The notes beneath the pieces were generated by a model. That model was not told where the DNA came from and ran no database searches. It saw nothing but the letters and a program-made list of their open reading frames with translations. A stretch of DNA of 64,000 nucleotides. It comes from Actinomycetes bacterium. Its GTDB lineage: Bacteria > Actinomycetota > Acidimicrobiia > Acidimicrobiales > Ilumatobacteraceae. Each line of letters opens with the position of its first letter. The first letter of the stretch is position 1. Shown one piece after another: positions 4,571 to 56,021 of this stretch. The stretch covers positions 2,193 to 66,192 of the forward strand of contig JAKOUY010000036.1 in NCBI GenBank assembly GCA_029782355.1, in the 5' to 3' direction. Both the position numbers and the translations under genes were made by a program.

Positions 4571-5010
4571 CCGCCCAGTTCGGTCGGGAAGCGGTCGACG
4601 TACGACCGCTCCTCGACGCGTTCGGCGATCCGCCACCCGTCGGTGGTGCGCACGAGGCGGTCGACGTACCACAGCCCGCAGAAGAACACGTGCGGATCGC
4701 CGTCGGGCTTGGTGTACACCATCGGGTTGAAGCAGATCGTCCGCGAGCGGGCGGTGTCCCCGTCGAGATCGATCATCGGCGGACCGATCATGTGCTGGAA
4801 CGACGAGAACATCGGCATGGCCGCTTCGAGGAACGGGACGATCACGTCCAGCCCGCCGGCGGGGCCGCCGAACACCGTGTAGTCGATGTGCGCGTCGGCG
4901 GTGAACACCCGCCGGAAGGCCACCCAGTCACGGCTGTCGACGGCGTGGCTGTAGCGCACCAGGAGGTCCTGGATCTCCATCCGATCGGACAGCTCCTGGA
5001 CGTCCATCAC
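4567..5010 (-). CDS. SnoaL-like / NTF2-fold family protein
   Basis: ORF 4567..5010, 147 aa. It has the typical SnoaL_4 N-terminus (IQDLLVRYSHAVDSRDW..F..DA..DY). Its start overlaps the ribF stop. Confidence 0.65.
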   Translation of the reverse strand: MMDVQELSDRMEIQDLLVRYSHAVDSRDWVAFRRVFTADAHIDYTVFGGPAGGLDVIVPFLEAAMPMFSSFQHMIGPPMIDLDGDTARSRTICFNPMVYTKPDGDPHVFFCGLWYVDRLVRTTDGWRIAERVEERSYVDRFPTELGG

Positions 5011-5987
5011 GGTCGCCTCCCTCGGTAGTGCAGCAGCGGTCGGGCGGCCTCGGCGGCCCGGTCGACGTCCTGTTTCAGCTGGGCCACGAGCGCGTCGATG
5101 CCGTCGAACTTGCGCTCGCTGCGCAGGAAGTGGGTGAAGCGGACCCGGGCCTGCTCGCCGTACAGGTCGCCCTCGAACCCCAGCAGGTGGGCTTCCAACA
5201 GCGACATCTCGGCATGCTCGTAGAACGTCGGGCGGCGGCCGAGGTTGATGGCGGTGGCGAAGCGAGCGCCGTCCGGCCGGGTGTAGATCCCGGCGTAGAC
5301 ACCGTCGGCGGGCAGGCAGATCGAGGCCGGGACCTGCACGTTGGCGGTCGGGAAGCCCAGCAGCCGGCCGCGCTGGTCACCCTGGATGACCACCCCGCGG
5401 ACCTCCAGCGGGCGACCCAGCATCCGCGCCGCCAGCTCGACCTGGCCGCCCGCCAGCGCCCGGCGGATGGCCGTCGAGCTGATCGGCTCGTCGACGCCGT
5501 CGAAGCGGGCGAGCAGCTCCACCGGCTCGACATCGAAGCCCAACTCGGCGCCCAGCTCGCGCAGCATGGGCACGCTGCCCTGGCGCTGGTGACCGAAGTG
5601 GAAGTCGGCACCGACGACCACGGTGGCCACCCCGAGGGCGCCCACCAGCACGCGGCGGGTGAAGTCCTCCGCCGTCTCGGTGGACTGGGCGTCGTCGAAG
5701 TGGACCACGACCGTGGCATCGACACCGGTGGCCGCGAGCAGTTCGAGCTTCTGGTCGAGATCGGTCAGCAGGCGAGGCGCCGATTCCGGGCGGACGACCG
5801 ATGCCGGATGGCGGTCGAAGGTGACCACCACAGAGCGTTGCCGGCGGCGGGTGGCGATGCGGCGGACCTCCTCGATCACCGCACGGTGGCCGGTGTGGAC
5901 ACCGTCGTAGGCGCCGATGGTCACCACGCTGCGTTCGCCGGGCCATGCCGCGTGTGAGAGATCCTCGACGACCTGCACGGCGGTCAC
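5007..5987 (-). CDS. ribF: Bifunctional riboflavin kinase / FMN adenylyltransferase
   Basis: ORF 5007..5987. Motifs: TIGAYDGVHTGHRAVI (FAD synthetase), GFPTAN and RPTF (riboflavin kinase domain). Confidence 0.9.
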   Translation of the reverse strand: MTAVQVVEDLSHAAWPGERSVVTIGAYDGVHTGHRAVIEEVRRIATRRRQRSVVVTFDRHPASVVRPESAPRLLTDLDQKLELLAATGVDATVVVHFDDAQSTETAEDFTRRVLVGALGVATVVVGADFHFGHQRQGSVPMLRELGAELGFDVEPVELLARFDGVDEPISSTAIRRALAGGQVELAARMLGRPLEVRGVVIQGDQRGRLLGFPTANVQVPASICLPADGVYAGIYTRPDGARFATAINLGRRPTFYEHAEMSLLEAHLLGFEGDLYGEQARVRFTHFLRSERKFDGIDALVAQLKQDVDRAAEAARPLLHYRGRRP

Positions 5988-6014: not shown

Positions 6015-6905
6015 TCACCCCGCGGGCGGGTCGAGGGCCACCATGACCGCCGGCTTGACCTCGCCGGGCCGGTGCGATTCGTACATCGCCAGCAGGGTTC
6101 CCTCGCCGTCGAGCACCGCCCAGGGCCCCGGACCGGCGAAGCCCTCGGCAGGCAGCACGCGGCCGTGGCGGATCAGCTCAACCGTCGCCGGATCGGCCGT
6201 GACGGCCGGATAGTCACGCATCGCCGCGGCCAGGTCGATCAACCCCACGGTGTCCGGCGGGCGGGCGTCGGCGTCGGTGAAGCTGCCCACCGCCGTGCGG
6301 CGCAGCCCGTGGAGGTGTGCTCCCCCGCCGAGCAGGCGACCGAGGTCGTCGGCCAACGAGCGGATGTAGGTCCCCGAGCTGCAGCGGACCTCGATGGCGA
6401 GCTGTCGCGGATCGGAGGTGCCGGCCACGTCGAAGGCGTGGACGGTGACCGGCCGCGGGGCGCGCTCGACCTCGAGTCCCTGGCGAGCCAGCTCGTGCAG
6501 CCGGCGACCGTCCACCTTCAGGGCGCTGACCATCGGCGGCACCTGCTGGATCGGGCCGAGGAGGTGCTCGGCCACCACCCGGCGAGCGTCGTCGACCGTG
6601 ACGCCGGCCATGTCGTAGGTGGCGGTCACCCGGCCGCTGCTGTCCAGGGTGTCGGTGGTGACACCCAGGCGGACGATGCCCGTGTACGTCTTGCCGAGCG
6701 CCGTGAGGAAGCGCAGGATCTTCGTCGCCTTGCCCACACCCACCAACAGCACCCCGGTGGCGTCGGGATCGAGTGTTCCGGCGTGGCCGACCTGACGCTC
6801 CTCGAGGCGGCGGCGGAGCATGCCGACCACGTCGTGGCTGGTCATCCCGGCCGGCTTGTCGACCACGGCCAGGCCGTGCACGGAGGGCGGGCGGCGGCGG
6901 GCCAT
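6015..6905 (-). CDS. truB: tRNA pseudouridine(55) synthase
   Basis: ORF 6015..6905. Motifs VVDKPAGMTSHDVV and GHAGTLDPDATGVLLVG (catalytic Asp motif). It lies in conserved synteny between rbfA and ribF. Confidence 0.9.
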   Translation of the reverse strand: MARRRPPSVHGLAVVDKPAGMTSHDVVGMLRRRLEERQVGHAGTLDPDATGVLLVGVGKATKILRFLTALGKTYTGIVRLGVTTDTLDSSGRVTATYDMAGVTVDDARRVVAEHLLGPIQQVPPMVSALKVDGRRLHELARQGLEVERAPRPVTVHAFDVAGTSDPRQLAIEVRCSSGTYIRSLADDLGRLLGGGAHLHGLRRTAVGSFTDADARPPDTVGLIDLAAAMRDYPAVTADPATVELIRHGRVLPAEGFAGPGPWAVLDGEGTLLAMYESHRPGEVKPAVMVALDPPAG

Positions 6906-6907
6906 GG

Positions 6908-7327
6908 TTAGTGGCCGGCGGGGTCGTCCTCGGGCGGGACCGGACGGTCCGGCAGGGTGGCCTGGTCGCGCAGCACCCGATCGATCCGCTCCGCGGCGCG
7001 GATCGTCTCGTCGACCCGGAACTGCAGGATCGGCGTCTTCTTGGCCCGCACCTGGCGACCGACGCTGGCCTGCAGGCGTACCCGGTGGGCGTTGAGCGCG
7101 TCGAGCACGTCGCCGTCGCCCTCCTCCCCCTGCAAGGAGTCGACGTACACGATCGCCCGGTTCATCTCCGGGTCGACATCGATCGACGTGACCGTGACCA
7201 GTTCGAGACGCTCGTCGTCGATGCGGGTCAGCTCCTCGGCGATCACCTCACGCAGCGACTCGTTCAGCCGGGCCGTGCGCGGGTACCGGTGTGGCGAGGT
7301 GGTGGCAGGGCGGCGGGGGCGGCTCAT
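6908..7327 (-). CDS. rbfA: Ribosome-binding factor A
   Basis: ORF 6908..7363. I prefer ATG 7327 (MSRPRRP..) because GAAGGAGA lies 7 nt upstream. The RTARLNESLREVIAEEL..DPEMNRAIVYV region is RbfA-like. Confidence 0.85.
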   Translation of the reverse strand: MSRPRRPATTSPHRYPRTARLNESLREVIAEELTRIDDERLELVTVTSIDVDPEMNRAIVYVDSLQGEEGDGDVLDALNAHRVRLQASVGRQVRAKKTPILQFRVDETIRAAERIDRVLRDQATLPDRPVPPEDDPAGH

Positions 7328-7409
7328 CGCAAGTCTCCTTCGGTCCGCGAGGTGGGTTGCCACCCTATCGGCGGGCCCGGTGCACCACGGGACCCGACGA
7401 ACACCGCTG

Positions 7410-8042
7410 CTAGCGGAAGTCGAGCTCGGCGCGGTTGGAGCGCTTCAGCTCGGCCATCCCGCTGGAGGTGGCGATCAGCTCGACCGCATCCCACAGGCGC
7501 ACGGCGTGCTCGCCGCGCGGGATCGAGGAGATCACCGGACCGAAGAAGCTGTTCTCCTCCGGCCGACCCGGGTGGAAGGTCAGGATCGGGGTGCCGACGT
7601 CCTTGCCGGTGCGCGCCAGCGCCAGCTCGGTGGCGGCGCGAATGGCGGCGTCGTGCGACTCGTCGTCGATCGCCGCGGCCACGGCCGGGTCGAAGCCGTG
7701 CTCGCCGAGCAGGGTCGCCCACCCCGCAGCCGGGTCGGCCTTCAGCTCAGCGGCGCGGCGCTGGCGATGGATGAACTCACCGGCGGCGGTGTAGAAGCGA
7801 TCGACGGCCTCGTTGCCGTGCGCGGCCTCGAGGGCGCCGGCGATGCGCAGGCCGGCATGTCCGACTGCCTGGCTCCGGCGACGCTCCGGGTCGACATCGG
7901 CAGCAGCCTCGTTGAGGATCTTCAGCGAGATCGGCCGCCAGACGACCTGGTAGTCGCGCTGCTCACGAACTTCCACGACCCACCGGGACGTGACGTAGGC
8001 GAACGGTCAAATCGGGTCGAAGAAGAACTCGAGATCTGCCAC
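7410..8042 (-). CDS. DsbA-like thioredoxin-fold protein (Rv2466c / mycothiol-dependent reductase-like) with in-frame TGA at 8007..8009: candidate selenoprotein
   Basis: The track ORF 7410..7976 starts at a GTG. Reading upstream in the same frame gives GTG(8042) VADLEFFFDPI-TGA-PFAYVTSRWVVEVREQ.. with no other stop. The TGA aligns with the first Cys of the FDPLCPWCWITSRW motif of Rv2466c-type proteins (recalled from memory). Downstream motifs also match: ISLKILNE, DVGTP, FFGPVISSIPRGE, ELKR. Confidence 0.6.
7974..7992 (-). promoter_or_regulatory. SECIS-like hairpin downstream of the TGA at 8007..8009
   Basis: Coding-strand sequence CACGUCCC-GGU-GGGUCGUG: 4 bp, a U.U mismatch, then 2-3 bp, with GGU at the apex. 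The stem starts 14 nt after the UGA. Confidence 0.4.
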
Positions 8043-8068: not shown

Positions 8069-11000
8069 TCAGGTGCGGGCGATCTCCCGCTCCTCGAAGG
8101 TCTCGATGATGTCTCCCGGCTTGAGATCCTGGAAGTCGGACAGGCCGATGCCGCACTCGAAGCCCTCGCGGACCTCGCGGACGTCGTCCTTGAACCGGCG
8201 CAGCGATTGGATCGAGCCCTTCCAGATGATCGTGCCGTCGCGCAGGAAGCGGACCTTCGAGCCACGGGTGATCTGCCCGCTGAGCACGTAGCACCCGGCG
8301 ATGGCGCCGATCCGCGGCACCCGGAAGATCTCGCGGACCTCGGCCTCGCCGGTGATCACCTCTTCGAACTCGGGGGCGAGCATGCCGACCATGGCCCGCT
8401 CGATGTCCTCGAGCAGCTTGTAGATGATCTCGTACAGGCGGACCTCGACGTGCTCGGCCTCGGCCATCTCCCGGGCCTTGCGGTCCGGGCGGACGTTGAA
8501 CCCGATCAGCGTGGCATTGGTGGTGGCCGCCAGGCTGATGTCGTTCTCGGTGATCGACCCCACACCACGGTGGACGAACGCCAGCTTGACGTCGTCGCGC
8601 TCCAGGCGGCGCAGCGACTCGGTGACGGCCTCCAGCGAGCCCTGCACGTCGGCCTTCAGCACCAGGTTCAAGGTGGCGACCTCGCCGGCCTGGATCTGGC
8701 TGAAGATGTCCTCCAGCTTGACGCCCCGCTGGACGCGGGCATCGCCACGCTGAGCCTTGAGCCGCTGGCGCTGCTCACGGGCCTCGCCCACGGTGCGGGC
8801 GGTCTTCTCGTCGGCGGCGGCACGGAACTCGTCGCCGGCGTTCGGCACGCTCTGCAACCCGAGCACCTGCACCGGGGTCGACGGGCCGGCCTCCTTGATC
8901 TGCTGACCCTTGTCGTCGATCATCGCCCGGACCCGGCCCCACGCCGCGCCGGCCACGATCGGGTCGCCGACCTTCAGCGTGCCCTTGTCGACCAGAATCG
9001 TGGCCACCGGGCCGCGGCCGACGTCGAGGTTGGCCTCCAGGACGATGCCCTTGGCCCGCCCGGTGGGATTGGCGGTCAGCTCCTCCAGCTCGGCGACGAC
9101 GACGAGTTGGGCGAGCAGATCATCGACCCCGAGGTTCTGCTGGGCGGACATCTCCACGGTGATCGTGTCGCCACCCCACGACTCGGGCACCAGCTCCTGC
9201 TCGGAGAGCTGGGAGAGCACCCGCTGGACGTCGGCGTTGTCCTTGTCGATCTTGTTGATCGCCACGACGATGGGCACCTCGGCGGCGCGGGCGTGGTTGA
9301 TCGCCTCCACCGTCTGGGGCATCACGCCGTCGTCGGCGGCCACCATCAGCACGACGATGTCGGTCACCTGCGCGCCACGGGCGCGCATCTTGGTGAACGC
9401 CGCGTGACCCGGGGTGTCGATGAAGGTCACCTCGCCCTCCGGCGTGGCCACCTTGTAGGCGCCGATGTGCTGGGTGATGCCGCCGGCCTCGCCGGCCACC
9501 ACGTTGGCGTTGCGGATCCGGTCGAGCAGGGTGGTCTTGCCGTGGTCGACGTGACCCATCACGGTCACCACCGGCGCCCGAGGCACCTGCGAAGCCTCGT
9601 CCTCGTCGTCGCTGTCGTCGAACAACGCCTGCAGCTCGAGCTCCTCCTGCTGGCCGGGTTCGACCAACAGCAGGTCGGCGCCGATCTCCAGGGCGAAGAG
9701 CTCCATCTGCTCGTCGGAGAGGGTCATCGTGGCGGTGACCATCTCGCCGTTCTGCATCAGGAAGCGGATCACGTCGGCCGGGGTGCGGTTCAGCTTGGGA
9801 GCGAACTCCTGGCTGGACACCCCCCGCTCGACCACGATGGTGCCCTCCGGCACCGGGGCCGAGGAGGCGGTGTACGACGAGTTGTAGTTGGGCTGCAACT
9901 CGTCGAAGTCACGGCGACGACGAGCGCGGCTCTTCTTGCGCGGTGCCCGGCGCTGGCCGCTCGGGCGACCGCCGCCACCGCCTGGCGGGCCACCAGGCCC
10001 GCCGGGACGCGGGCCGAAGCCGCCACCGGGACGCGGGCCACCGGGGCCACCACCCGGACGCGGTCCGAAGCCACCGGGCCGCGGGCCGCCAGGACCGCCG
10101 GGCCGGCCGCCGACACCGGCGGGGCGCGGTCCGCCCGGACGCGGCGCGCCCGGACCACCGGGGCGGGCCGTGTAGCTGCCGGGTCGGGACTGCGGGCGAG
10201 CCGAACCGGGCGGCGGCGGGATCGGGCGACCGGATGCCGACAGCGGGCGACCCACGCCGGGCGGCGGCGGGATCGGGCGACCGGATGCCGACATCGGCCG
10301 GGGTCCGGGGGTCGGAGGCATGCCGGGCGGTGGGGCCGCCGGACGTACAGCGGGGCCGCCGGCTGCTGCCGGCGGGCGCGGCGCGGCGGACGGCGGCGGC
10401 CCGGACGGGCGCGGCGCGGCCGGACGGGGCGGCTCGGCGCTCGGCCGGCTGCTGACGATGCGTCGCGGCTCGTCGTCGGTCGGTGCCGTCGACGCCGACC
10501 CGGCGGGGGCCGGCATGTCGGCCGGGCTCGCCGCGGCCGGGGCCGCGCTCCGGGCGGGCGCGGCGGGGGCTGCGGTTCGGGCGGGCGCGGCGGGCGGAGC
10601 CGGGGGCGTCTCGGCCACCGGGGCCGGTGACGGGGCGGAACTCGGCGCCGGCGCGGGCTCGGGAGACGGGCTCGGCGGGGCGGCCACCTCGGGGACCGCC
10701 GCCGGAGCCGGGGTCGGCGGGGCGGCGGGCGGGGTCTCGACGGGCACCGCCGGGGCGGGGGCCGGGGACGCCTCGGTGACGGCATGCTCGGCGACCGGCG
10801 CACCCGGCACCTCGGCGTCGGCCGGCGCGGCGTCAGCGGTGGCCTTCTTCGGGGCGGCCTTCTTCGCCGCAGCCTTCTTGACCGGCTTGGGCTCCTCGGG
10901 CTGCTCCGGGCGGGTCAGGCCGTCGCGCTCGGCGCGGCGACGCAGCCGGTCGGCCTGGGCCTCGATCAGTGTCGAGGAATGGCTCTTCACGCCGACGCCC

Positions 11001-11071
11001 ATGCGGTCGGCCAGCTCCATCATTTCGGTGTTCGTCATGCCGAGCTCTTTGGCCAGCTCGTGCACGCGCAT
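8069..11071 (-). CDS. infB: Translation initiation factor IF-2
   Basis: ORF 8069..11275. Start set at ATG 11071 ([20 protein letters not shown], the canonical IF-2 N-terminus) with AAGGAAAGG upstream. Long Pro/Ala/Gly-rich linker. GTPase motifs [21 protein letters not shown]. Confidence 0.95.
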
Positions 11072-11088
11072 GTTCTTCGCCAAGCCTG

Positions 11089-11424
11089 TCAGCCTTTCCT
11101 TGGCTCTGCTGGTCCGGGAACGGCGTCCCGGGCCGTTGATGATGTTCGCACGTCGGCGCCAACCGGTCCGAACGAGATGAGCAATCCGTCGAGCGCCCCG
11201 GCGTCGAGCGGACGCCGCCACGCCCGCTCGAAGGCCTTGCGCCGCCGGGCGGTGTCCAGGCACGCGGCCGAGCACAGCCAGGCCCCACGCCCGGGGGCGG
11301 TGCGGCTGACCTCGGCACCGGCGGGACCGACCACGCAGCGCACCAGGCGCGCCTGGACGTCGCGTCGCCGGCAGCCGATGCAGGTCCGCAGCGGTTGGCG
11401 GGGCTCACTCGCTCGGTGCGTCAC
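11089..11424 (-). CDS. ylxR: YlxR/RnpM family (DUF448) RNA-binding protein
   Basis: ORF 11089..11424. It has the RTCIGCR motif and sits between nusA and infB. The exact start is uncertain because it overlaps the nusA end. Confidence 0.75.
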   Translation of the reverse strand: MTHRASEPRQPLRTCIGCRRRDVQARLVRCVVGPAGAEVSRTAPGRGAWLCSAACLDTARRRKAFERAWRRPLDAGALDGLLISFGPVGADVRTSSTARDAVPGPAEPRKG

Positions 11425-27681: not shown

Positions 27682-29352
<1,671 letters not shown>

Positions 29353-29445: not shown

Positions 29446-30774
29446 ATGTCGGGCATGCTGATCACGGCGCTGGCCGCCGCGGGAACGCTGGTGGCACCGC
29501 TGGGCGTGGCACAACACCAGCCACGGTCGTCCGCCGCCGGCTGCGCCACCGTCGTGAGGCCGGGAGCCGACGTCACGGCCGCGCTGGGCGACGCGCTGGT
29601 CGCCGCCAGCGCCGAGCCGGACCCCCGAGTCGTCGGGCCCGCCGGCGCTCCCCAGGGTCGGGTGTACCTGCCGGCGGGCGAGTACGGGCTGTCCCAGGTG
29701 ACGGTGCCCTCCAACGTCCGCCTGGAGATCGACCCGGGGGCGACCCTGCACCCGGTGCCGACCAGCCGCCCGACGCGGGGGCGCGATTGGGGCATGTTCG
29801 TGTTCGGGACGCCCGACCAGCCAACTCGCAACGTCACGGTGGTGGCCGGTGACGGCTGCGGCGGGCCGGGCACCCCGACCGCGGCGAACAAGCCGGCGTC
29901 GACCGACTTCCGCGGCAACCTCCCGGAGACGGGCATGCACAACATGGCCGTGCCACTGGCCGGATGGAACACCGAGGCGATGTGGGTCCTCGACGTCGAC
30001 CCGGGACACTGGCAGGTCGACGAGCAGGTCACCGGCTTCCTGCTGCACTGGGCCCTCGACGTCGAGATCGGGTCGGTGTTCTCCATCCAGAACCCGGCTC
30101 GCCAGCCCACCGGGATCGGGCCGGTCCCCGGCGTCACCAGCCGGACGACCGTCATGATGTTCGACCCGCACGAGGGGATGCCCGTGCCGGCCGACGAGGC
30201 CGACGCCCGGCTCCCGCAACGGATCCACGTCCACGACCACTACAACATCCTCTCGCCGTCCGGCCAGGGACCGAACCAAGTCCGCTCGTGCATCGACTGC
30301 CGCTTCGAGCGGATCTTCAGCCACGGAGGCGTGGCCCTGCGGATCGAGACCGACGGGATCCGCCGGGTGACCGACTGCACGGCCACCGGTCCCAATGGTC
30401 AGGGGTTCACCACCTACGCCATCGTCGACCGCCTCGTGGCCGAGGACATCGTCGGCGCTGACGGCAATCGCGCCGCGATGTTGACCCCGCACTGCCTGGA
30501 CAGCGGGGTGGTGACCGTCCGCCGGGTCACCGGCTACAGCGAGTTCCAGACCGCGGTCGCCGCAGCCCGCGACCGGGGCAGCCGCTCGGGCGGGTTCGCC
30601 GCCGGCAGCCGGATCGACGAGGTGCGCGCCTGTCCCGGCGACGCCGCCCAGGAGCCGCACCCCGATCGGGACAGCTACCTGCCGGCGACCTCGCAGGTCG
30701 CCGTCGTGGACGCCTCGCCCACGGTCGTGGTGACCCCGGCCCTGCCCTGGCCGGGGTGCGTCAACCCACCGTGA
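29446..30774 (+). CDS. Hypothetical secreted protein (signal peptide; possibly beta-helix-like)
   Basis: The last 442 aa of the artefactual ORF 26974..30774, from ATG 29446 (MSGMLITALAAAGTLVAPLGVAQ). I recognise no family. Confidence 0.5.
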   Translation: MSGMLITALAAAGTLVAPLGVAQHQPRSSAAGCATVVRPGADVTAALGDALVAASAEPDPRVVGPAGAPQGRVYLPAGEYGLSQVTVPSNVRLEIDPGATLHPVPTSRPTRGRDWGMFVFGTPDQPTRNVTVVAGDGCGGPGTPTAANKPASTDFRGNLPETGMHNMAVPLAGWNTEAMWVLDVDPGHWQVDEQVTGFLLHWALDVEIGSVFSIQNPARQPTGIGPVPGVTSRTTVMMFDPHEGMPVPADEADARLPQRIHVHDHYNILSPSGQGPNQVRSCIDCRFERIFSHGGVALRIETDGIRRVTDCTATGPNGQGFTTYAIVDRLVAEDIVGADGNRAAMLTPHCLDSGVVTVRRVTGYSEFQTAVAAARDRGSRSGGFAAGSRIDEVRACPGDAAQEPHPDRDSYLPATSQVAVVDASPTVVVTPALPWPGCVNPP

Positions 30775-34134: not shown

Positions 34135-34731
34135 GTGCGCACCCGGACCGCCGCGGCACGTCTCGCCGCCTGCATCGCCGGGTCGGCGCTCGTGCTCGGG
34201 GCGTGCGGCGACGCGCCGGCTCGGACCGGCTCGGGCGCCACGGTGCCGCGATCGGCCACGGTGACCGGGGCGCCGGCGATGACCGCCCAGCCGGCCACGG
34301 TGCCGGCCGGGGCCACGCCCGGCACCGCCGTGGAACCGCTGCGCTTCTCGGCCACGCTCGTCGACGGCTCGACCCTCGATCTGGCCACGCTGTCGGGCAC
34401 GCCGGTGGTGCTGTGGTTCTGGGCGCCCACTTGAGGCGTGTGCAACCGGGAAGCCCCCTCGGTCGAGGCGGCCAGCGCTCGGTGGGCCGGTCGGGCCCGC
34501 TTCATCGGCGTCGCCTGGAACGGGGACCACGCCGCGTTCCAGGCCTTCGTCGACCAGCACCACCTGACCTTTCCGCAGATCGCCGACCCGGATGGGGACG
34601 TCTTCGCCCGCTTCGGGATCCCCGCCCAGCCGGCCATGGCGATCATCGACCGCCACGGCCTGGTGGCCCGCCAGCTCGGTCCGATCGAACCGGCCACCCT
34701 CGACCAGGCCCTGACCACGGCAGGAGGCTGA
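34135..34731 (+). CDS. TlpA/ResA-like thiol-disulfide oxidoreductase lipoprotein with in-frame TGA at 34432..34434 (UGVC in place of CxxC): candidate selenoprotein
   Basis: The tail of ORF 33589..34434 from GTG 34135 (VRTRTAAARLAACIAGSALVLGACGD, a lipobox) and ORF 34438..34731 are in the same frame, separated only by TGA-GGC. The joined sequence reads ..PVVLWFWAPT-U-GVCNREAPSVEA..F.GVAW..FPQIADPDG..F....PA.AIID, i.e. the WxxWCxxC..E.P redoxin signature with Sec at the first Cys. Confidence 0.6.
34453..34472 (+). promoter_or_regulatory. SECIS-like hairpin downstream of the TGA at 34432..34434
   Basis: GCCCCCUC-GGUC-GAGGCGGC: 4 bp, one C.C mismatch, then 3 bp, with a GGUC apical tetraloop. The stem starts 18 nt after the UGA. 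Confidence 0.4.
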
Positions 34732-48356: not shown

Positions 48357-50544
48357 TGCACGTCGTCGTGCTCGGTTCGGGCGGGCGGGAGCACGCCATC
48401 GCCTGGCACGTCGCCCGCCACGGGCACCGGGTTGAGGTGTGCGACTCGATCCACTCGGCAGTCGGCGCCCACCCGGACCTGGTCATCGTCGGGCCCGAAT
48501 CACTGCTGGCCGCGGGGGCCGCCGACCGCTGCACGGCAGCCGGCATCGCCTGCTTCGGCCCCACCGCAGCGCTGGCCCGGTTGGAGACCTCCAAGGCCGA
48601 CGGCCGTGACCTGGCGGCCCGCCTGGGCATCCCCATCCCCCGCTACCGCACGCACCCCGACGCGCCCAGCGCGCTCGACGCGTGGCGCGCCGACGGATGC
48701 CCCCCGGTGGTGGTCAAGCAGGACGGCCTGGCGGCCGGCAAAGGCGTGGCCGTCCCGGACGGTCCGGCCGAGACCGAAGCCGCCATCGTCGCCCTCGGCG
48801 CTGCCGGGCCGCTGGTGGTCGAGCAGCGCATGAGCGGCCCGGAGCTGACCCTCCTGGCCGTCTCCGACGGGCGTCGCGCCGTGGCGCTGCCGCTGGTGCA
48901 GGACCACAAGCGGATCGGCGAGGGGGACACCGGACCGAACACGGGTGGCATGGGCGCGGTGGCCCCCGTCGACCTCGGCCTCGACCCGGCGGCCCTGACG
49001 GCCACGTTCGTCCAGCCGGTCATCGATCACCTCGCCGCCGCCGGGACGCCCTACATCGGGGTGCTGTACGCCGGGCTGATGCTCACGGCGGGCGGGCCTC
49101 GACTGGTGGAGTACAACTGCCGCTTCGGGGATCCCGAGGCCCAGGCCGTCCTGGCGCTGCTGGATGCCGACCTGGCGGCTCTGGCGATGGCCTGCGTCGA
49201 GGGTCGGCTCGACCCCGCCATGGTGACCACCCGAGCCGGGGCAGCCTGCACGGTGGTGGCCGCCGCCCCCGGCTACCCGGACTGCCCGCAGCTCGGCGGC
49301 ACGGTGCGCCTCGACGGCCGCCCGCTGCCCGACGGCAGCGTCGAGCTGGCCGAGGGCGTGGTGCTGCACCCGGCGGGAGTGTGCCGCGGCACGGTCACCG
49401 GCGGGCGGGTGCTGTCGGTCACGGCCACTGCAGCCGACCTCGGTCGGGCCCGACAGCAGGCGTACGACGCGCTGGCGCGCATCGAGCTCGACGGCGTCCA
49501 GGTGCGCGGCGACATCGGCTGGCGGGCCCGGGCGGCGGGCATCGCCACCTACTCGGCGACCGGGGTGGACATCGACGAAGGCAATCGGGCCGTCCGCTCC
49601 CTGGCCGCGGCGGTCGAGGCGACCCACGGCCCTGCCGTGCTGCGCGGCGTCGGCAGCTTCGGCGGGGCCTTCTCCGCCGCGGCGCTGGTCGCCATGGACG
49701 ATCCGGTGCTGGTCGGCTCCACCGACGGCGTCGGCACGAAGGTCGAGCTAGCCGCCCGGGCCGGGCGCTACGCCGGGGTCGGCCAGGACATCGTCAACCA
49801 CTGCATCGACGACGTCCTCGTGCAGGGGGCTCGCCCGCTGTTCTTCCTCGACTACATCGCCGCCGCCCGGATCCGCGCCGAGCAGGTCGCCGAGGTCGTC
49901 GGCGGCATGGCCGCGGCCTGCGCGGCCGGTGGGTGTGCGCTGCTGGGCGGGGAGACCGCCGAGATGCCGGGCGTCTACCACGACGGCCACTTCGACATCG
50001 CCGGCACGCTGGTGGGTGCGGTGGAGCGGGCCGACCTGCTGCCCCGCCCGACGGTGGCCGCCGGCGACGTCCTGGTCGGCCTGGCCTCCAGCGGAGCGCA
50101 CACCAACGGGTACTCGCTGCTGCGCAACCTGTTCGCCTGGCTGCCCCTCGACGCCCAGCCGGCCCCGCTCGATCGCCCGCTGGTCGACGCCCTGCTCGAG
50201 CCGCACCGTTCGTACCTCGACGTCCTCGGCCCGCTGCTCGACCACCCGGCGCTGAAGGCCCTGGCCCACATCACGGGCGGCGGGCTGCCGGAGAACCTGC
50301 CTCGGGTCCTGCCCGAGGGGGTCCACGCCGAGATCCAGCTCGGCTCGTGGCCGCTGCCACCGCTGTTCGAGCTGGTCACCCAGGTCGCCACGACCATGCC
50401 GGTTGAGGAGCTGTACCGGACCCTCAACATGGGCATCGGCATGGTCGTGGTCACCGATCGGCCGGAGGAGATCCGAGCCGCCATCGCCGAGCCGAGCTGG
50501 ATCATCGGGCGCCTGGTGCCCGGCCGGCGCGGGGTCACCCTGCG

Positions 50545-50548
<4 letters not shown>
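48356..50548 (+). CDS. purD-purM: Fused phosphoribosylamine--glycine ligase (PurD) / AIR synthase (PurM)
   Basis: In ORF 47483..50548 from ATG 48356, 730 aa. The PurD part has VVVLGSGGREHA, DHKRIGEGDTGPNTGGMG, EYNCRFGDPE and GDIGWRA. It continues directly into the PurM part: YSATGVDIDEGNRAV, GTDGVGTKV, LGGETAEMPG, AHITGGG. Confidence 0.9.
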
Positions 50549-52666
<2,118 letters not shown>

Positions 52667-55208: not shown

Positions 55209-56021
55209 ATGGCGGGAGGTTCGATGCTGATCTACGAGCCGTGCGGATCGATCGCCGGGGAGGATGGTGCGCCACGGCGCACGCCGGGCATCCGCCCGTC
55301 ACTGGTCGGGCGGCGCCTCGGCGTGCTCGACAATGGCAAGCCCAATGCCGGCGTGGTGCTCGGTGCCATCGCCCAGACCCTGGTCGGTCGGCACGGCGCC
55401 GTGGCCGGACTGGTCACCGGCAAGGGCCCAGGTGCCAATGCGGCCACCGCCGCCCGTCCGGAGGTCCTCGCCCGGCTGGGCGACGAGGTCGACGTCACGC
55501 TGGTGGGCTCGGCCGATTGAGGGAGCTGCACGTCGTGGAGTGTCCACGACGCCGTCGAGCTGGAGGGCCGCGGAGTCACCGCGCTCGTCGTGACCACCCC
55601 ACCGTTCCTCTCGCTGACCCGCCGGGTCGCCGCCGAGCTGGGGCGTGCGGACCTGGCCGTGCTCGTCGTCCCCCACCCGTTGGGCGGCACCGATCCGGAC
55701 GAGGTGCGCCGGTGGGGCGCCGAGTCGGCCGAGATCGCCGCCCGAGCGCTCGCCGGGACACCCGTGCCCGGATCGGACCAGGCCGAGCCGGCGCGCTTGG
55801 CCGATCTGCAGCAGACGCTGCGCCAGGACGGCGCCGAACTGCGCCTCGAGCGCATCGAGGGTGGCGTCGCCCACCTCACCCTGGAACTCGCCGACGCCCG
55901 CTGCGCCGAGTGCGTCATGCCCGCCGAGTTCATCGAGCGGTTGGCCGGCGCGGCCCTGGCGGCCGAGATCGACGGGCTGGGCGGCGTGGTCGTCCACGAT
56001 CCGCGACGGGAGGACCGATGA
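55209..56021 (+). CDS. UGSC-motif protein with a NifU-like C-terminal domain and in-frame TGA at 55518..55520: candidate selenoprotein
   Basis: ORF 55209..55520 and ORF 55590..56021 are in the same frame with no stop between them other than the TGA. The joined sequence reads ..VDVTLVGSAD-U-GSCTSWSVHDAVELEGRGVTALVVTTPPF.. The C-terminus (LRLERIEGGVAHLTLELADARCAECVMP) is NifU/Nfu-like. ATG 55224, preceded by GGGAGG, is the more likely start. Confidence 0.6.
55531..55551 (+). promoter_or_regulatory. SECIS-like hairpin downstream of the TGA at 55518..55520
   Basis: CGUCGUGGA-GUG-UCCACGACG: a perfect 9-bp stem (or 8 bp with an AGUGU loop). It starts 10 nt after the UGA. Confidence 0.5.

What the first reader, a model, noticed from the sequence alone, without database searches (positions are those of the whole stretch)
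7410..8042. Rv2466c/DsbA-like reductase between infB and rbfA with TGA at the active-site Cys (U-P-F-A): possibly a new selenoprotein family member
The track starts this ORF at GTG 7976. The same frame is open upstream to GTG 8042 except for one TGA (8007..8009).

The read-through N-terminus, VADLEFFFDPI-U-PFAYVTSRWVVEV, aligns with the FDPLCPWCWITSRW active-site segment of the mycobacterial mycothiol/mycoredoxin-dependent reductase Rv2466c (recalled from memory). Sec sits at the nucleophilic Cys and Ala at the resolving Cys.

The rest of the protein matches that family. Without the N-terminal 22 aa it would lack its catalytic residue.

A hairpin with apical GGU (7974..7992, minus strand) begins 14 nt after the UGA.

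The gene is inserted in the otherwise conserved infB-rbfA junction, 27 nt after the infB stop.
Basis: partly seen in the sequence, partly recalled or inferred. Interest (0 to 1): 0.8.

Follow-up and report, generated by a model that had tools for sequence, protein, structure and literature searches.

The report
Unannotated selenocysteine Rv2466c-like reductase gene
The "stop" codon near the start of this gene most likely encodes selenocysteine at the enzyme's catalytic position, so the gene, and some 70 relatives in public databases, has been annotated as a truncated protein lacking its active site.

Summary
On the minus strand, GTG 8042 opens a frame interrupted only by TGA 8009..8007. The read-through product is a full-length Rv2466c-like (Pfam PF22234) thioredoxin-fold reductase, and the TGA aligns with the nucleophilic Cys19 of Rv2466c.

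Evidence that the TGA is decoded:
- Nine other distinct orthologues from three subclades carry TGA in the same column, with conserved coding sequence on both sides.
- About 70 database homologues are "truncated" exactly there.
- A hairpin 14 nt downstream fits the bacterial SECIS model. It shows two compensatory wobble-pair switches, and its synonymous sites are frozen in Sec forms (p=0.005) but not in Cys forms.
- The same window holds two more UGA-interrupted redox genes, a UGSC-family protein and a U-G-V-C redoxin.

Two qualifications. Ala at the "resolving" position is normal for this clade (C-P-[FW]-[AT]), so the enzyme has a single redox residue; the window protein has no Cys at all. No selA/B/C/D lies in the window, although related Ilumatobacter genomes have them.

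DsbA-like selenoproteins are already known, so this is a new subfamily-level member and not a new principle.

The parts
7410..8042 (-). Full read-through CDS of the Rv2466c-like selenoprotein. It is 210 codons with Sec at codon 12, starting at GTG and ending at TAG 7412..7410.
   Evidence: Pfam PF22234 E=5e-42 over residues 11-201, which is profile positions 1-180 of 180. Aligns with PDB Rv2466c over residues 5-203.
8040..8042 (-). Start codon GTG. It is the only canonical start between the upstream in-frame stop and the UGA.
   Evidence: It sits at codon -11 from the UGA. Orthologues carry ATG, GTG, TTG or CTG at codon -11 or -12. It matches the MADLEFFFDP N-terminus of the Cys forms.
8007..8009 (-). 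In-frame TGA, read as the selenocysteine codon. It aligns with the nucleophilic Cys19 of Rv2466c.
   Evidence: The same column is TGA in L001, L002, L004, L005, L006, L013, L014/15, L016 and L017, and TGC in the Cys forms.
7973..7993 (-). SECIS-like hairpin UCACGUCCC-GGU-GGGUCGUGG. It has 8 pairs with a conserved U.U mismatch and an apical GGU loop, and there are 22 nt from the UGA to the loop.
   Evidence: It fits the published bSECIS constraints at -9.5 kcal/mol and is the RNAalifold consensus. Two compensatory wobble pairs are seen, and synonymous sites are frozen in Sec forms only.
7974..7976 (-). GTG used as the start in existing annotation. It gives a 188-aa product that lacks the active site and is most likely a gene-caller artefact.
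   Evidence: P0001. This codon is Val21 inside the conserved SRWVVEV helix of all full-length homologues.
8069..11275 (-). infB, the upstream neighbour. Its stop is TGA 8071..8069, 26 nt before the GTG.
   Evidence: The ordinary TGA stop shows that the genome uses the standard code.
6908..7363 (-). rbfA, the downstream neighbour. truB (6015..6905) and ribF (5007..5987) follow it.
   Evidence: Pfam RBFA, TruB_N, FAD_syn. The same order is seen next to Cys-form orthologues.

Best explanation
The gene encodes a 210-residue cytoplasmic thioredoxin-fold reductase of the Rv2466c-like (DsbA-mycoredoxin) family.

Translation starts at GTG 8042. UGA 8009..8007 is decoded as selenocysteine by the SelB/tRNA-Sec system, guided by the hairpin that begins 14 nt downstream inside the coding sequence.

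Sec12 replaces the nucleophilic Cys of the C-P-[FW]-x motif. This clade has Ala or Thr instead of the resolving Cys, and the window protein has no Cys anywhere. The enzyme must therefore work through a single redox residue.

Inferred mechanism: the selenolate attacks a mixed disulfide, or an oxidant, on the substrate. The resulting Se-S adduct (or selenenic acid) is resolved by a low-molecular-weight thiol, most plausibly mycothiol. This parallels the monothiol demycothiolation route shown for Rv2466c and NCgl2478.

Shown here: family membership, the position of the UGA, its conservation, and RNA-level constraint on the hairpin. Inferred: that the inserted residue is Sec, the identity of the thiol partner, and the substrates.
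For: - Family and position: Pfam PF22234 E=5e-42 over the full profile. PDB Rv2466c E=4e-35, with the UGA opposite Cys19.
- Conservation: TGA in the same column in 10 distinct sequences from three subclades. Upstream codons are conserved and differ mostly at synonymous sites.
- Spread: 72 of 240 homologues begin exactly after that column. All 10 distinct DNA sequences examined carry the TGA.
- Hairpin: it is the RNAalifold consensus. Of its cells, 93% are paired, against 30-53% in shifted registers. Both free wobble-wobble pairs switch in a compensatory way, C-G/G-C and G-C/C-G.
- Synonymous sites: 5 of 5 hairpin codons are identical in five Sec forms, against 32% elsewhere in the gene (p=0.005). 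Cys forms give 1 of 5 against 36%.
- SECIS model: the hairpin meets the published bSECIS constraints (PMC13188914 section 5).
- Same window: a UGSC-family gene with U-G-S-C (Pfam E=2e-38 across the UGA) and a lipoprotein redoxin with U-G-V-C. Each has a compliant hairpin.
- Lineage: Ilumatobacter is scored SelD+/SelA+/SelB+ with 10-15 selenoproteins.
- Single-residue chemistry: the window protein has no Cys, nor do 42 of the 72 Sec candidates. The monothiol mechanism needs only the nucleophilic Cys (PMC6178380, PMC8280269).
Against: - No selA, selB, selD or tRNA-Sec is in the 64-kb window. The rest of the genome could not be read.
- The hairpin is not more stable than shuffled sequence. Compliant hairpins follow 17% of all UGA triplets here.
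- Much of the stem is dictated by the T-S-R-W-V-V codons. The closest Cys form (L007) keeps the identical hairpin.
- The compensatory changes amount to one clade-level switch per pair.
- Two Sec-form orthologues (L013, L014) have only CTG, not ATG/GTG/TTG, upstream of the UGA.
- L004 carries frameshifts.
- There is no protein-level evidence of selenium.
- Mycothiol dependence is extrapolated from dithiol relatives that are only about 40% identical.
Confidence: 0.85

Rival explanations
1. The gene is a pseudogene, or the Cys codon has suffered a nonsense mutation (TGC to TGA is one step). The gene is dead, or only the truncated product is made.
For: TGC to TGA is a single transition-type step. 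L004 does carry frameshifts as well as the TGA. Existing annotations call the truncated ORF.
Against: The same codon is TGA in 10 distinct sequences of 57-88% protein identity from three subclades. Nine of these are otherwise intact over about 200 codons. The codons upstream of the TGA stay conserved at the amino-acid level and differ mostly at synonymous sites. A truncated product would lack the only catalytic residue.
Confidence: 0.03
2. The protein really starts downstream (GTG 7976, or ATG 'MTSRW' in the other clade). The conserved upstream stretch would then be an untranslated leader or regulatory RNA, not coding sequence.
For: L013 and L014 have no canonical start codon upstream of the UGA. 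A start codon lies directly after the UGA region in every Sec form.
Against: The upstream stretch matches the family's L-[DE]-F-F-F-D-P-x motif codon for codon, with third-position variation (CTC/CTG, CCT/CCA/CCC, GGT/GCC). That is a protein-coding signature. In L013 and L014 a CTG sits exactly at codon -11, where the others have ATG/GTG/TTG. The downstream 'start' lies inside helix alpha-1 of the fold.
Confidence: 0.04
3. The UGA is read through, but not as Sec. It could be read as Cys or Trp by near-cognate or suppressor decoding, or by a tRNA-Sec-like tRNA charged with Cys.
For: None of the tools can identify the inserted residue. No tRNA-Sec was seen in the window.
Against: The UGA is followed by a conserved SECIS-type hairpin under synonymous-site constraint. 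The window holds a UGSC-family gene, which is a recognised (seleno)protein family. The lineage is documented as SelA/SelB/SelD positive. infB and other genes end in ordinary TGA stops.
Confidence: 0.07
4. The TGA is a sequencing or assembly error at a TGC codon in this one assembly.
For: The window comes from a metagenome-assembled genome. L004 shows that such assemblies can contain indels.
Against: An independent Logan assembly (L003) gives the identical sequence. Orthologues from at least eight other samples have the same TGA.
Confidence: 0.01

Closest known systems
Rv2466c / mycoredoxin-2 of M. tuberculosis and NCgl2339 / NCgl2478 of C. glutamicum (DsbA-Mrx cluster; PDB 4nxi, 4zil, 5xur; Pfam PF22234)
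   Same: It has the same fold and family (E=4e-35 to the solved structure, full-length Pfam match). The redox residue sits at the same position, before Pro at the N-terminus of helix alpha-1. The published monothiol route needs only that residue.
   Different: The nucleophile is Sec, not Cys. The resolving Cys is absent, giving U-P-F-A instead of C-P-[WF]-C, so the dithiol route used for prodrug activation is impossible. Identity to Rv2466c is only about 40%. Dependence on mycothiol is untested.
DsbA-like selenoproteins of the literature: 'DsbA-like' / 'DsbA 1, 2' (COG2761, UxxC; Zhang 2005, 2008), 'DsbA 3' (UxxV; GOS 2008) and 'DsbA-like form 2' (DxxUP; 2026 review citing Peng 2016)
   Same: These are DSBA-clan thioredoxin-fold proteins in which Sec replaces the N-terminal active-site Cys. 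DsbA 3 and form 2 also lack a resolving Cys. The window protein literally reads D-P-I-U-P.
   Different: The described forms are assigned to PF01323/COG2761 and come from Deltaproteobacteria, Clostridia and marine metagenomes. [quoted passage not shown] No paper in the searchable library links selenocysteine with Rv2466c. NCBIfam has no model that hits these proteins. I could not retrieve the example sequences, so identity with DsbA 3 or form 2 is neither shown nor excluded.
Selenocysteine glutathione peroxidases and monothiol glutaredoxin/mycoredoxin-1 mechanisms
   Same: A single chalcogen nucleophile with no resolving residue in the protein is regenerated by two equivalents of a low-molecular-weight thiol. 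This comparison rests on established knowledge, and its application here is inference.
   Different: The sub-fold within the thioredoxin superfamily differs. No peroxidase or deglutathionylation-type activity has been tested for this protein.
E. coli fdhF-type bacterial SECIS, and the bSECISearch consensus
   Same: The hairpin lies in the coding sequence just after the UGA. It has a small apical loop starting G-[G/U], 22 nt from the UGA to the loop, and an unpaired U in the stem.
   Different: The stem is short at 8 pairs, with a U.U mismatch instead of a bulged U, and the loop is only 3 nt. L006 uses a differently placed hairpin. SelB binding is untested.

Membership tests
Bacterial selenoprotein gene (SelB/SECIS-dependent UGA decoding) | An in-frame UGA aligned with a redox-active Cys in homologues | tested here: met
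   The UGA aligns with the Cys of C-P-[FW]-[AT] in about 157 homologues and with Cys19 of Rv2466c.
Bacterial selenoprotein gene (SelB/SECIS-dependent UGA decoding) | The UGA is conserved in orthologues, with coding conservation on both sides | tested here: met
   Ten distinct DNA sequences from three subclades carry it. Upstream codons are conserved and differ mostly at synonymous sites.
Bacterial selenoprotein gene (SelB/SECIS-dependent UGA decoding) | A downstream hairpin meeting the bSECIS model (loop 3-9 nt, G in the first two loop positions followed by G/U, 16-37 nt spacing, -7.5 kcal/mol or lower) that is conserved | tested here: met
   Loop GGU, spacing 22 nt, -9.5 kcal/mol. It is the RNAalifold consensus with two compensatory pairs. 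Synonymous sites are constrained in Sec forms only. Caveat: 17% of all UGA triplets in the window comply by chance.
Bacterial selenoprotein gene (SelB/SECIS-dependent UGA decoding) | selA, selB, selC (tRNA-Sec) and selD are present in the same genome | not testable with these tools
   None lies in the 64-kb window. Indirect support comes from two other UGA-containing redox genes in the window and from Ilumatobacter being SelA/B/D positive in PMC5029168.
Bacterial selenoprotein gene (SelB/SECIS-dependent UGA decoding) | Selenium shown in the protein by 75Se labelling or mass spectrometry | not testable with these tools
   This needs an experiment.
Rv2466c-like / DsbA-mycoredoxin cluster (Pfam PF22234) | A sequence match to the family profile above its curated cut-off | tested here: met
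   144.5 bits against a cut-off of 27, covering profile positions 1-180 of 180. L005 and L006 also match, at E=5e-51 and 3e-86.
Rv2466c-like / DsbA-mycoredoxin cluster (Pfam PF22234) | Full-length homology to the solved Rv2466c structure | tested here: met
   4nxi, 4zil and 5xur match at E about 4e-35 over residues 5-203.
Rv2466c-like / DsbA-mycoredoxin cluster (Pfam PF22234) | The C-P-[W/F]-C dithiol active-site motif, stated to be the cluster's signature (PMC8280269) | tested here: not met
   The window has U-P-F-A. In the clade the counts are CPWA 80, CPWT 39, CPFA 33, CPWS 2 and CPWC only 2. It belongs to the Pfam family but not to the dithiol 'DsbA-Mrx' signature group.
Rv2466c-like / DsbA-mycoredoxin cluster (Pfam PF22234) | Electrons come from mycothiol / mycothione reductase | not testable with these tools
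   The only support is indirect. Mycothiol S-conjugate amidase is reported as conserved across Acidimicrobiia (PMC5962788).
Published 'DsbA-like' selenoprotein families (form 1 UxxC; DsbA 3 UxxV; form 2 DxxUP) | A PF01323 DSBA domain with Sec at the first active-site position | tested here: met
   PF01323 scores 27.8 bits against a cut-off of 25.6 over residues 4-51. Sec occupies the first motif position.
Published 'DsbA-like' selenoprotein families (form 1 UxxC; DsbA 3 UxxV; form 2 DxxUP) | The UxxC motif of form 1 / COG2761 | tested here: not met
   The motif here is U-P-F-A.
Published 'DsbA-like' selenoprotein families (form 1 UxxC; DsbA 3 UxxV; form 2 DxxUP) | Being the same family as 'form 2' (DxxUP, MDP6049977.1) or GOS 'DsbA 3' (UxxV) | tested here: inconclusive
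   The motif D-P-I-U-P fits DxxUP. [quoted passage not shown]

The most novel reading that the evidence does not exclude
This may be the first selenoprotein of the actinobacterial mycothiol redox system. It would be a one-Sec 'mycoredoxin-2' with no Cys at all, working through a Se-S-mycothiol intermediate as a mycothiol-dependent reductase or peroxidase.

On this reading it arose from Cys ancestors about ten separate times within Acidimicrobiia. It is widespread there (70 or more 90%-identity clusters) but invisible in annotation.
Probability: 0.3. Interest if true: 0.6.

Novelty: new member of a known kind. Interest (0 to 1): 0.45.

Why it matters
Annotation is the main practical consequence. 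At least about 70 protein clusters in public databases are N-terminally truncated at this UGA and lack their catalytic residue. Examples are HEX2048561.1, MEN3316306.1 and MGI8807405.1, named 'disulfide bond formation protein DsbA' or 'hypothetical protein'. No NCBIfam model would let annotation pipelines rescue them.

The finding adds the Rv2466c/mycoredoxin-2 family to the list of thioredoxin-fold families with natural Sec/Cys pairs. That family matters because Rv2466c activates antitubercular prodrugs. The Sec and Cys forms are closely related, sometimes about 70% identical, and the single-residue active site is unusually clean. Together these make a convenient natural system for comparing Sec and Cys catalysis.

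It also shows that uncultured Acidimicrobiia carry sizeable selenoproteomes, with three selenoprotein genes in 64 kb here. The principle itself, Sec replacing a catalytic Cys with a coding-region SECIS, is conventional.

Tried and rejected
- **DNA pattern scans** of genome contigs and metagenome contigs found only 3 loci. My pattern required Ala or Ser after P-[FW], and the main Sec clade has Thr (U-P-W-T), so these counts greatly understate the family.
- **NCBIfam** gave no hit for the window, L005 or L006 proteins.
- **Sec machinery in the window.** Pfam annotation of about 50 ORFs found none. The AIRS-domain hits belong to PurL and PurM, not SelD.
- **A possible tRNA-Sec.** ARAGORN's 90-nt 'tRNA-Arg(gcg)' at 30640..30729 was considered. 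It has no Rfam tRNA or tRNA-Sec match even at E<=10, so I treat it as a G+C-rich false positive.
- **Thermodynamic stability** of the post-UGA region is not significant against shuffles. I dropped it as evidence in favour of covariation and synonymous-site tests.
I relied on the alignment to the solved structure instead.
- **Literature searches** for selenocysteine+Rv2466c, selenoprotein+Ilumatobacter and selenoprotein+mycothiol found nothing relevant. PMC12013261 (Haft & Tolstoy 2025) is not held.
- **Genome-wide UGA reassignment** was rejected, because infB and the redoxin gene end in ordinary TGA stops.

Full report
**Observation.** On the minus strand a GTG at 8042..8040 opens a frame that runs to TAG 7412..7410. 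It is interrupted only by TGA 8009..8007. The ORF normally called starts at GTG 7976. infB ends with TGA 8071..8069, 26 nt upstream, and rbfA, truB and ribF follow downstream. The read-through N-terminus is (M)ADLEFFFDPI-*-PFAYVTSRWVVEV. An independent assembly of the same sequence has the same TGA.

**What the protein is.** With the TGA read as Cys for searching, the 210-aa product matches Pfam PF22234 (Rv2466c-like). The match is E=5e-42 over the whole profile, and there is a weak DSBA (PF01323) hit. It aligns over residues 5-203 with the solved Rv2466c structures (4nxi, 4zil, 5xur; E about 4e-35). The TGA falls opposite Cys19, the first Cys of C19-P-W-C22. Published work identifies Cys19 as the nucleophile and Cys22 as the resolving residue, and shows that demycothiolation needs only the nucleophile (PMC6178380, PMC8280269). 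A product starting at 7976 would begin inside helix alpha-1 and lack the catalytic residue.

**Homologues.** Thousands exist, mostly from Acidimicrobiia/Ilumatobacteraceae MAGs. In the alignment the motif is F-F-F-D-P-x-C-P-[FW]-A. Across 240 retrieved homologues the motifs are CPWA 80, CPWT 39, CPFA 33, CPWS 2 and CPWC 2. Ala at the 'resolving' position is therefore the clade norm, not something peculiar to this gene. The window protein contains no Cys at all, and neither do 42 of 72 candidate Sec forms.

**Is the TGA conserved?**
- Two close homologues (P0010, P0020; 71% and 66% identity) are 'truncated' at the same MEVR start. Their DNA has TGA in the same column, with conserved codons upstream that differ mostly at synonymous sites.
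- A degenerate DNA pattern found three more in other subclades: L004 and L005 (Acidimicrobiales/Actinomycetota MAGs) and L006.
- A search with the L005 protein showed that 69 of its 120 best relatives start exactly at 'MTSRW', the first Met after the expected U-P-W-x-W.
- DNA for four distinct members of that group all read F-F-F-D-P-[GA]-TGA-CCG-TGG-ACC-TGG-ATG, which is U-P-W-T.
- In total ten distinct sequences have TGA at the catalytic column, and every candidate examined on DNA did.
- On an NJ tree the Sec/Cys states need at least about 10 switches, with Cys at the root. The Sec state is inferred from truncation for most tips.
- Public records name these proteins as truncated 'DsbA' or 'hypothetical protein'.

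**The hairpin.** Its stability is not better than shuffles. In this 73% G+C window 17% of all 1213 UGA triplets are followed by a hairpin that meets the published bSECIS constraints. A compliant hairpin (loop GGU, 22 nt spacing, -9.5 kcal/mol) is therefore weak evidence on its own. Most stem positions are also fixed by the T-S-R-W-V-V codons. The informative positions are two wobble-wobble pairs.
- Both wobble pairs are Watson-Crick in nine of the ten Sec forms, and both switch in a compensatory way between clades (C-G to G-C, and G-C to C-G). L006 uses a shifted hairpin.
- RNAalifold recovers the same helix without being given it.
- 93% of cells are paired, against 30-53% in shifted registers.
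- In five Sec forms of the L005 clade all five degenerate hairpin codons are identical, against 32% elsewhere in the gene (Fisher p=0.005). This includes the locally rare CGT, which supplies the G-U-U loop.
- In four Cys forms only 1 of 5 is identical, against 36% elsewhere.
- Of the Cys forms, L007 keeps the hairpin, L008 loses one pair, and L009 and L011/12 lose two to four.

Sample sizes are small, and each compensatory pair reflects one clade-level event.

**Sec capacity of the organism.** No selA, selB, selD or tRNA-Sec lies in the window. ARAGORN's odd 90-nt tRNA has no Rfam support. The window does hold two further UGA-interrupted redox genes.
- A lipoprotein redoxin reads ...WFWAPT-U-GVC (TGA 34432..34434). 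Its Pfam match reaches the CxxC region only if the TGA is read through.
- A UGSC-family gene reads ...GSAD-U-GSC (TGA 55518..55520). Its Pfam UGSC match spans the TGA at E=2e-38. It also matches NCBIfam 'UGSC family (seleno)protein', below that model's cut-off.
- Each has a compliant hairpin. The chance of all three complying is about 0.005 at the measured base rate.

Peng et al. 2016 score Ilumatobacter coccineus and I. nonamiensis as SelD+/SelA+/SelB+, with 15 and 10 selenoproteins. Ordinary TGA stops at infB and the redoxin gene exclude a reassigned code.

**Mechanism (inferred).** Sec12 is the only redox-active residue. The selenolate would attack a mixed disulfide or an oxidant, and the Se-S or Se-OH intermediate would be resolved by a small thiol. 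Mycothiol is the obvious candidate. The family is mycothiol-linked, and mycothiol S-conjugate amidase is reported to be conserved in Acidimicrobiia. This is untested.

**Context.** The infB-gene-rbfA arrangement is shared by Cys-form orthologues. It is not shared by the other Sec clade. It is clade synteny, not part of the mechanism.

**Novelty.** DsbA-like selenoproteins have been known since 2005 (UxxC, COG2761). They occur in Deltaproteobacteria and Clostridia. GOS listed a 'DsbA 3' with UxxV. A 2026 catalogue lists a 'form 2' with DxxUP. Neither of the last two has a resolving Cys. I found no paper that links selenocysteine with Rv2466c and no NCBIfam model for these proteins. I could not fetch the catalogued examples to exclude overlap. 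I therefore rate this as a new subfamily-level member of a known kind. It is real and well supported, useful for annotation and for Sec-versus-Cys enzymology, but not surprising in principle.

Noticed in passing
window 34135..34731 (+); TGA 34432..34434; hairpin 34453..34472: A second candidate selenoprotein. It is a lipoprotein-type (lipobox L-G-A-C) TlpA/ResA-like redoxin reading ...VVLWFWAPT-U-GVC-NREAP. The part after the TGA matches AhpC-TSA/Redoxin only from profile position 41, while the read-through matches from position 8. A SECIS-model hairpin (loop GGUC, -9.9 kcal/mol) lies 26 nt from the UGA to the loop.
   Followed up: partly
window 55209 or 55224..56021 (+); TGA 55518..55520; hairpin 55531..55551: A third selenoprotein gene, of the UGSC family, reading ...LVGSAD-U-GSC-TSW. 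The read-through matches Pfam PF24696 UGSC at positions 16-170 of 172, E=2e-38. It also matches NCBIfam NF041046 'UGSC family (seleno)protein' at E=5e-30, below that model's cut-off. A strong 9-bp hairpin with a GUG loop starts 10 nt after the UGA.
   Followed up: partly
L013 9968..9970 and L014 9968..9970 (CTG at codon -11 from the UGA): Two Sec-form orthologues have no ATG, GTG or TTG between the upstream in-frame stop and the Sec UGA. Both have CTG at exactly the position where the others have their start codon, which suggests CTG initiation.
   Followed up: partly
L004 403..985 (JADDRA010000001.1): This Sec-form orthologue needs at least two frame shifts to be read through. It is either a decaying gene or indel errors in that MAG assembly.
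   Followed up: no
window 30640..30729 (-): ARAGORN calls a 90-nt 'tRNA-Arg(gcg)' just downstream of the E2 acyltransferase gene. Rfam finds no tRNA or tRNA-Sec there even at E<=10. The stretch folds strongly (-50.7 kcal/mol, z=-2.2) but is most likely a G+C-rich false positive.
   Followed up: yes
window 27682..29352 (-): A single 556-aa ORF carries a LipB-type lipoyl/octanoyl transferase domain (residues 12-210) followed by lipoyl synthase radical-SAM domains (266-477). It looks like a LipB-LipA fusion.
   Followed up: no
window about 48458..50545 (+), then 50545..51195 (+): PurD (GARS N/A/C domains) and PurM (AIRS domains) lie in one uninterrupted frame, directly followed by a PurN-type formyltransferase gene. 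This is the GARS-AIRS-GART order of the eukaryotic trifunctional enzyme. The gene boundaries were not checked.
   Followed up: no
P0121, P0183, P0140 (HEX2048561.1, MEN3316306.1, MGI8807405.1) and about 70 further clusters: Public records annotate the Sec forms as 185-190-aa 'disulfide bond formation protein DsbA' or 'hypothetical protein' starting at MTSRW. This is a systematic truncation at the Sec codon.
   Followed up: yes
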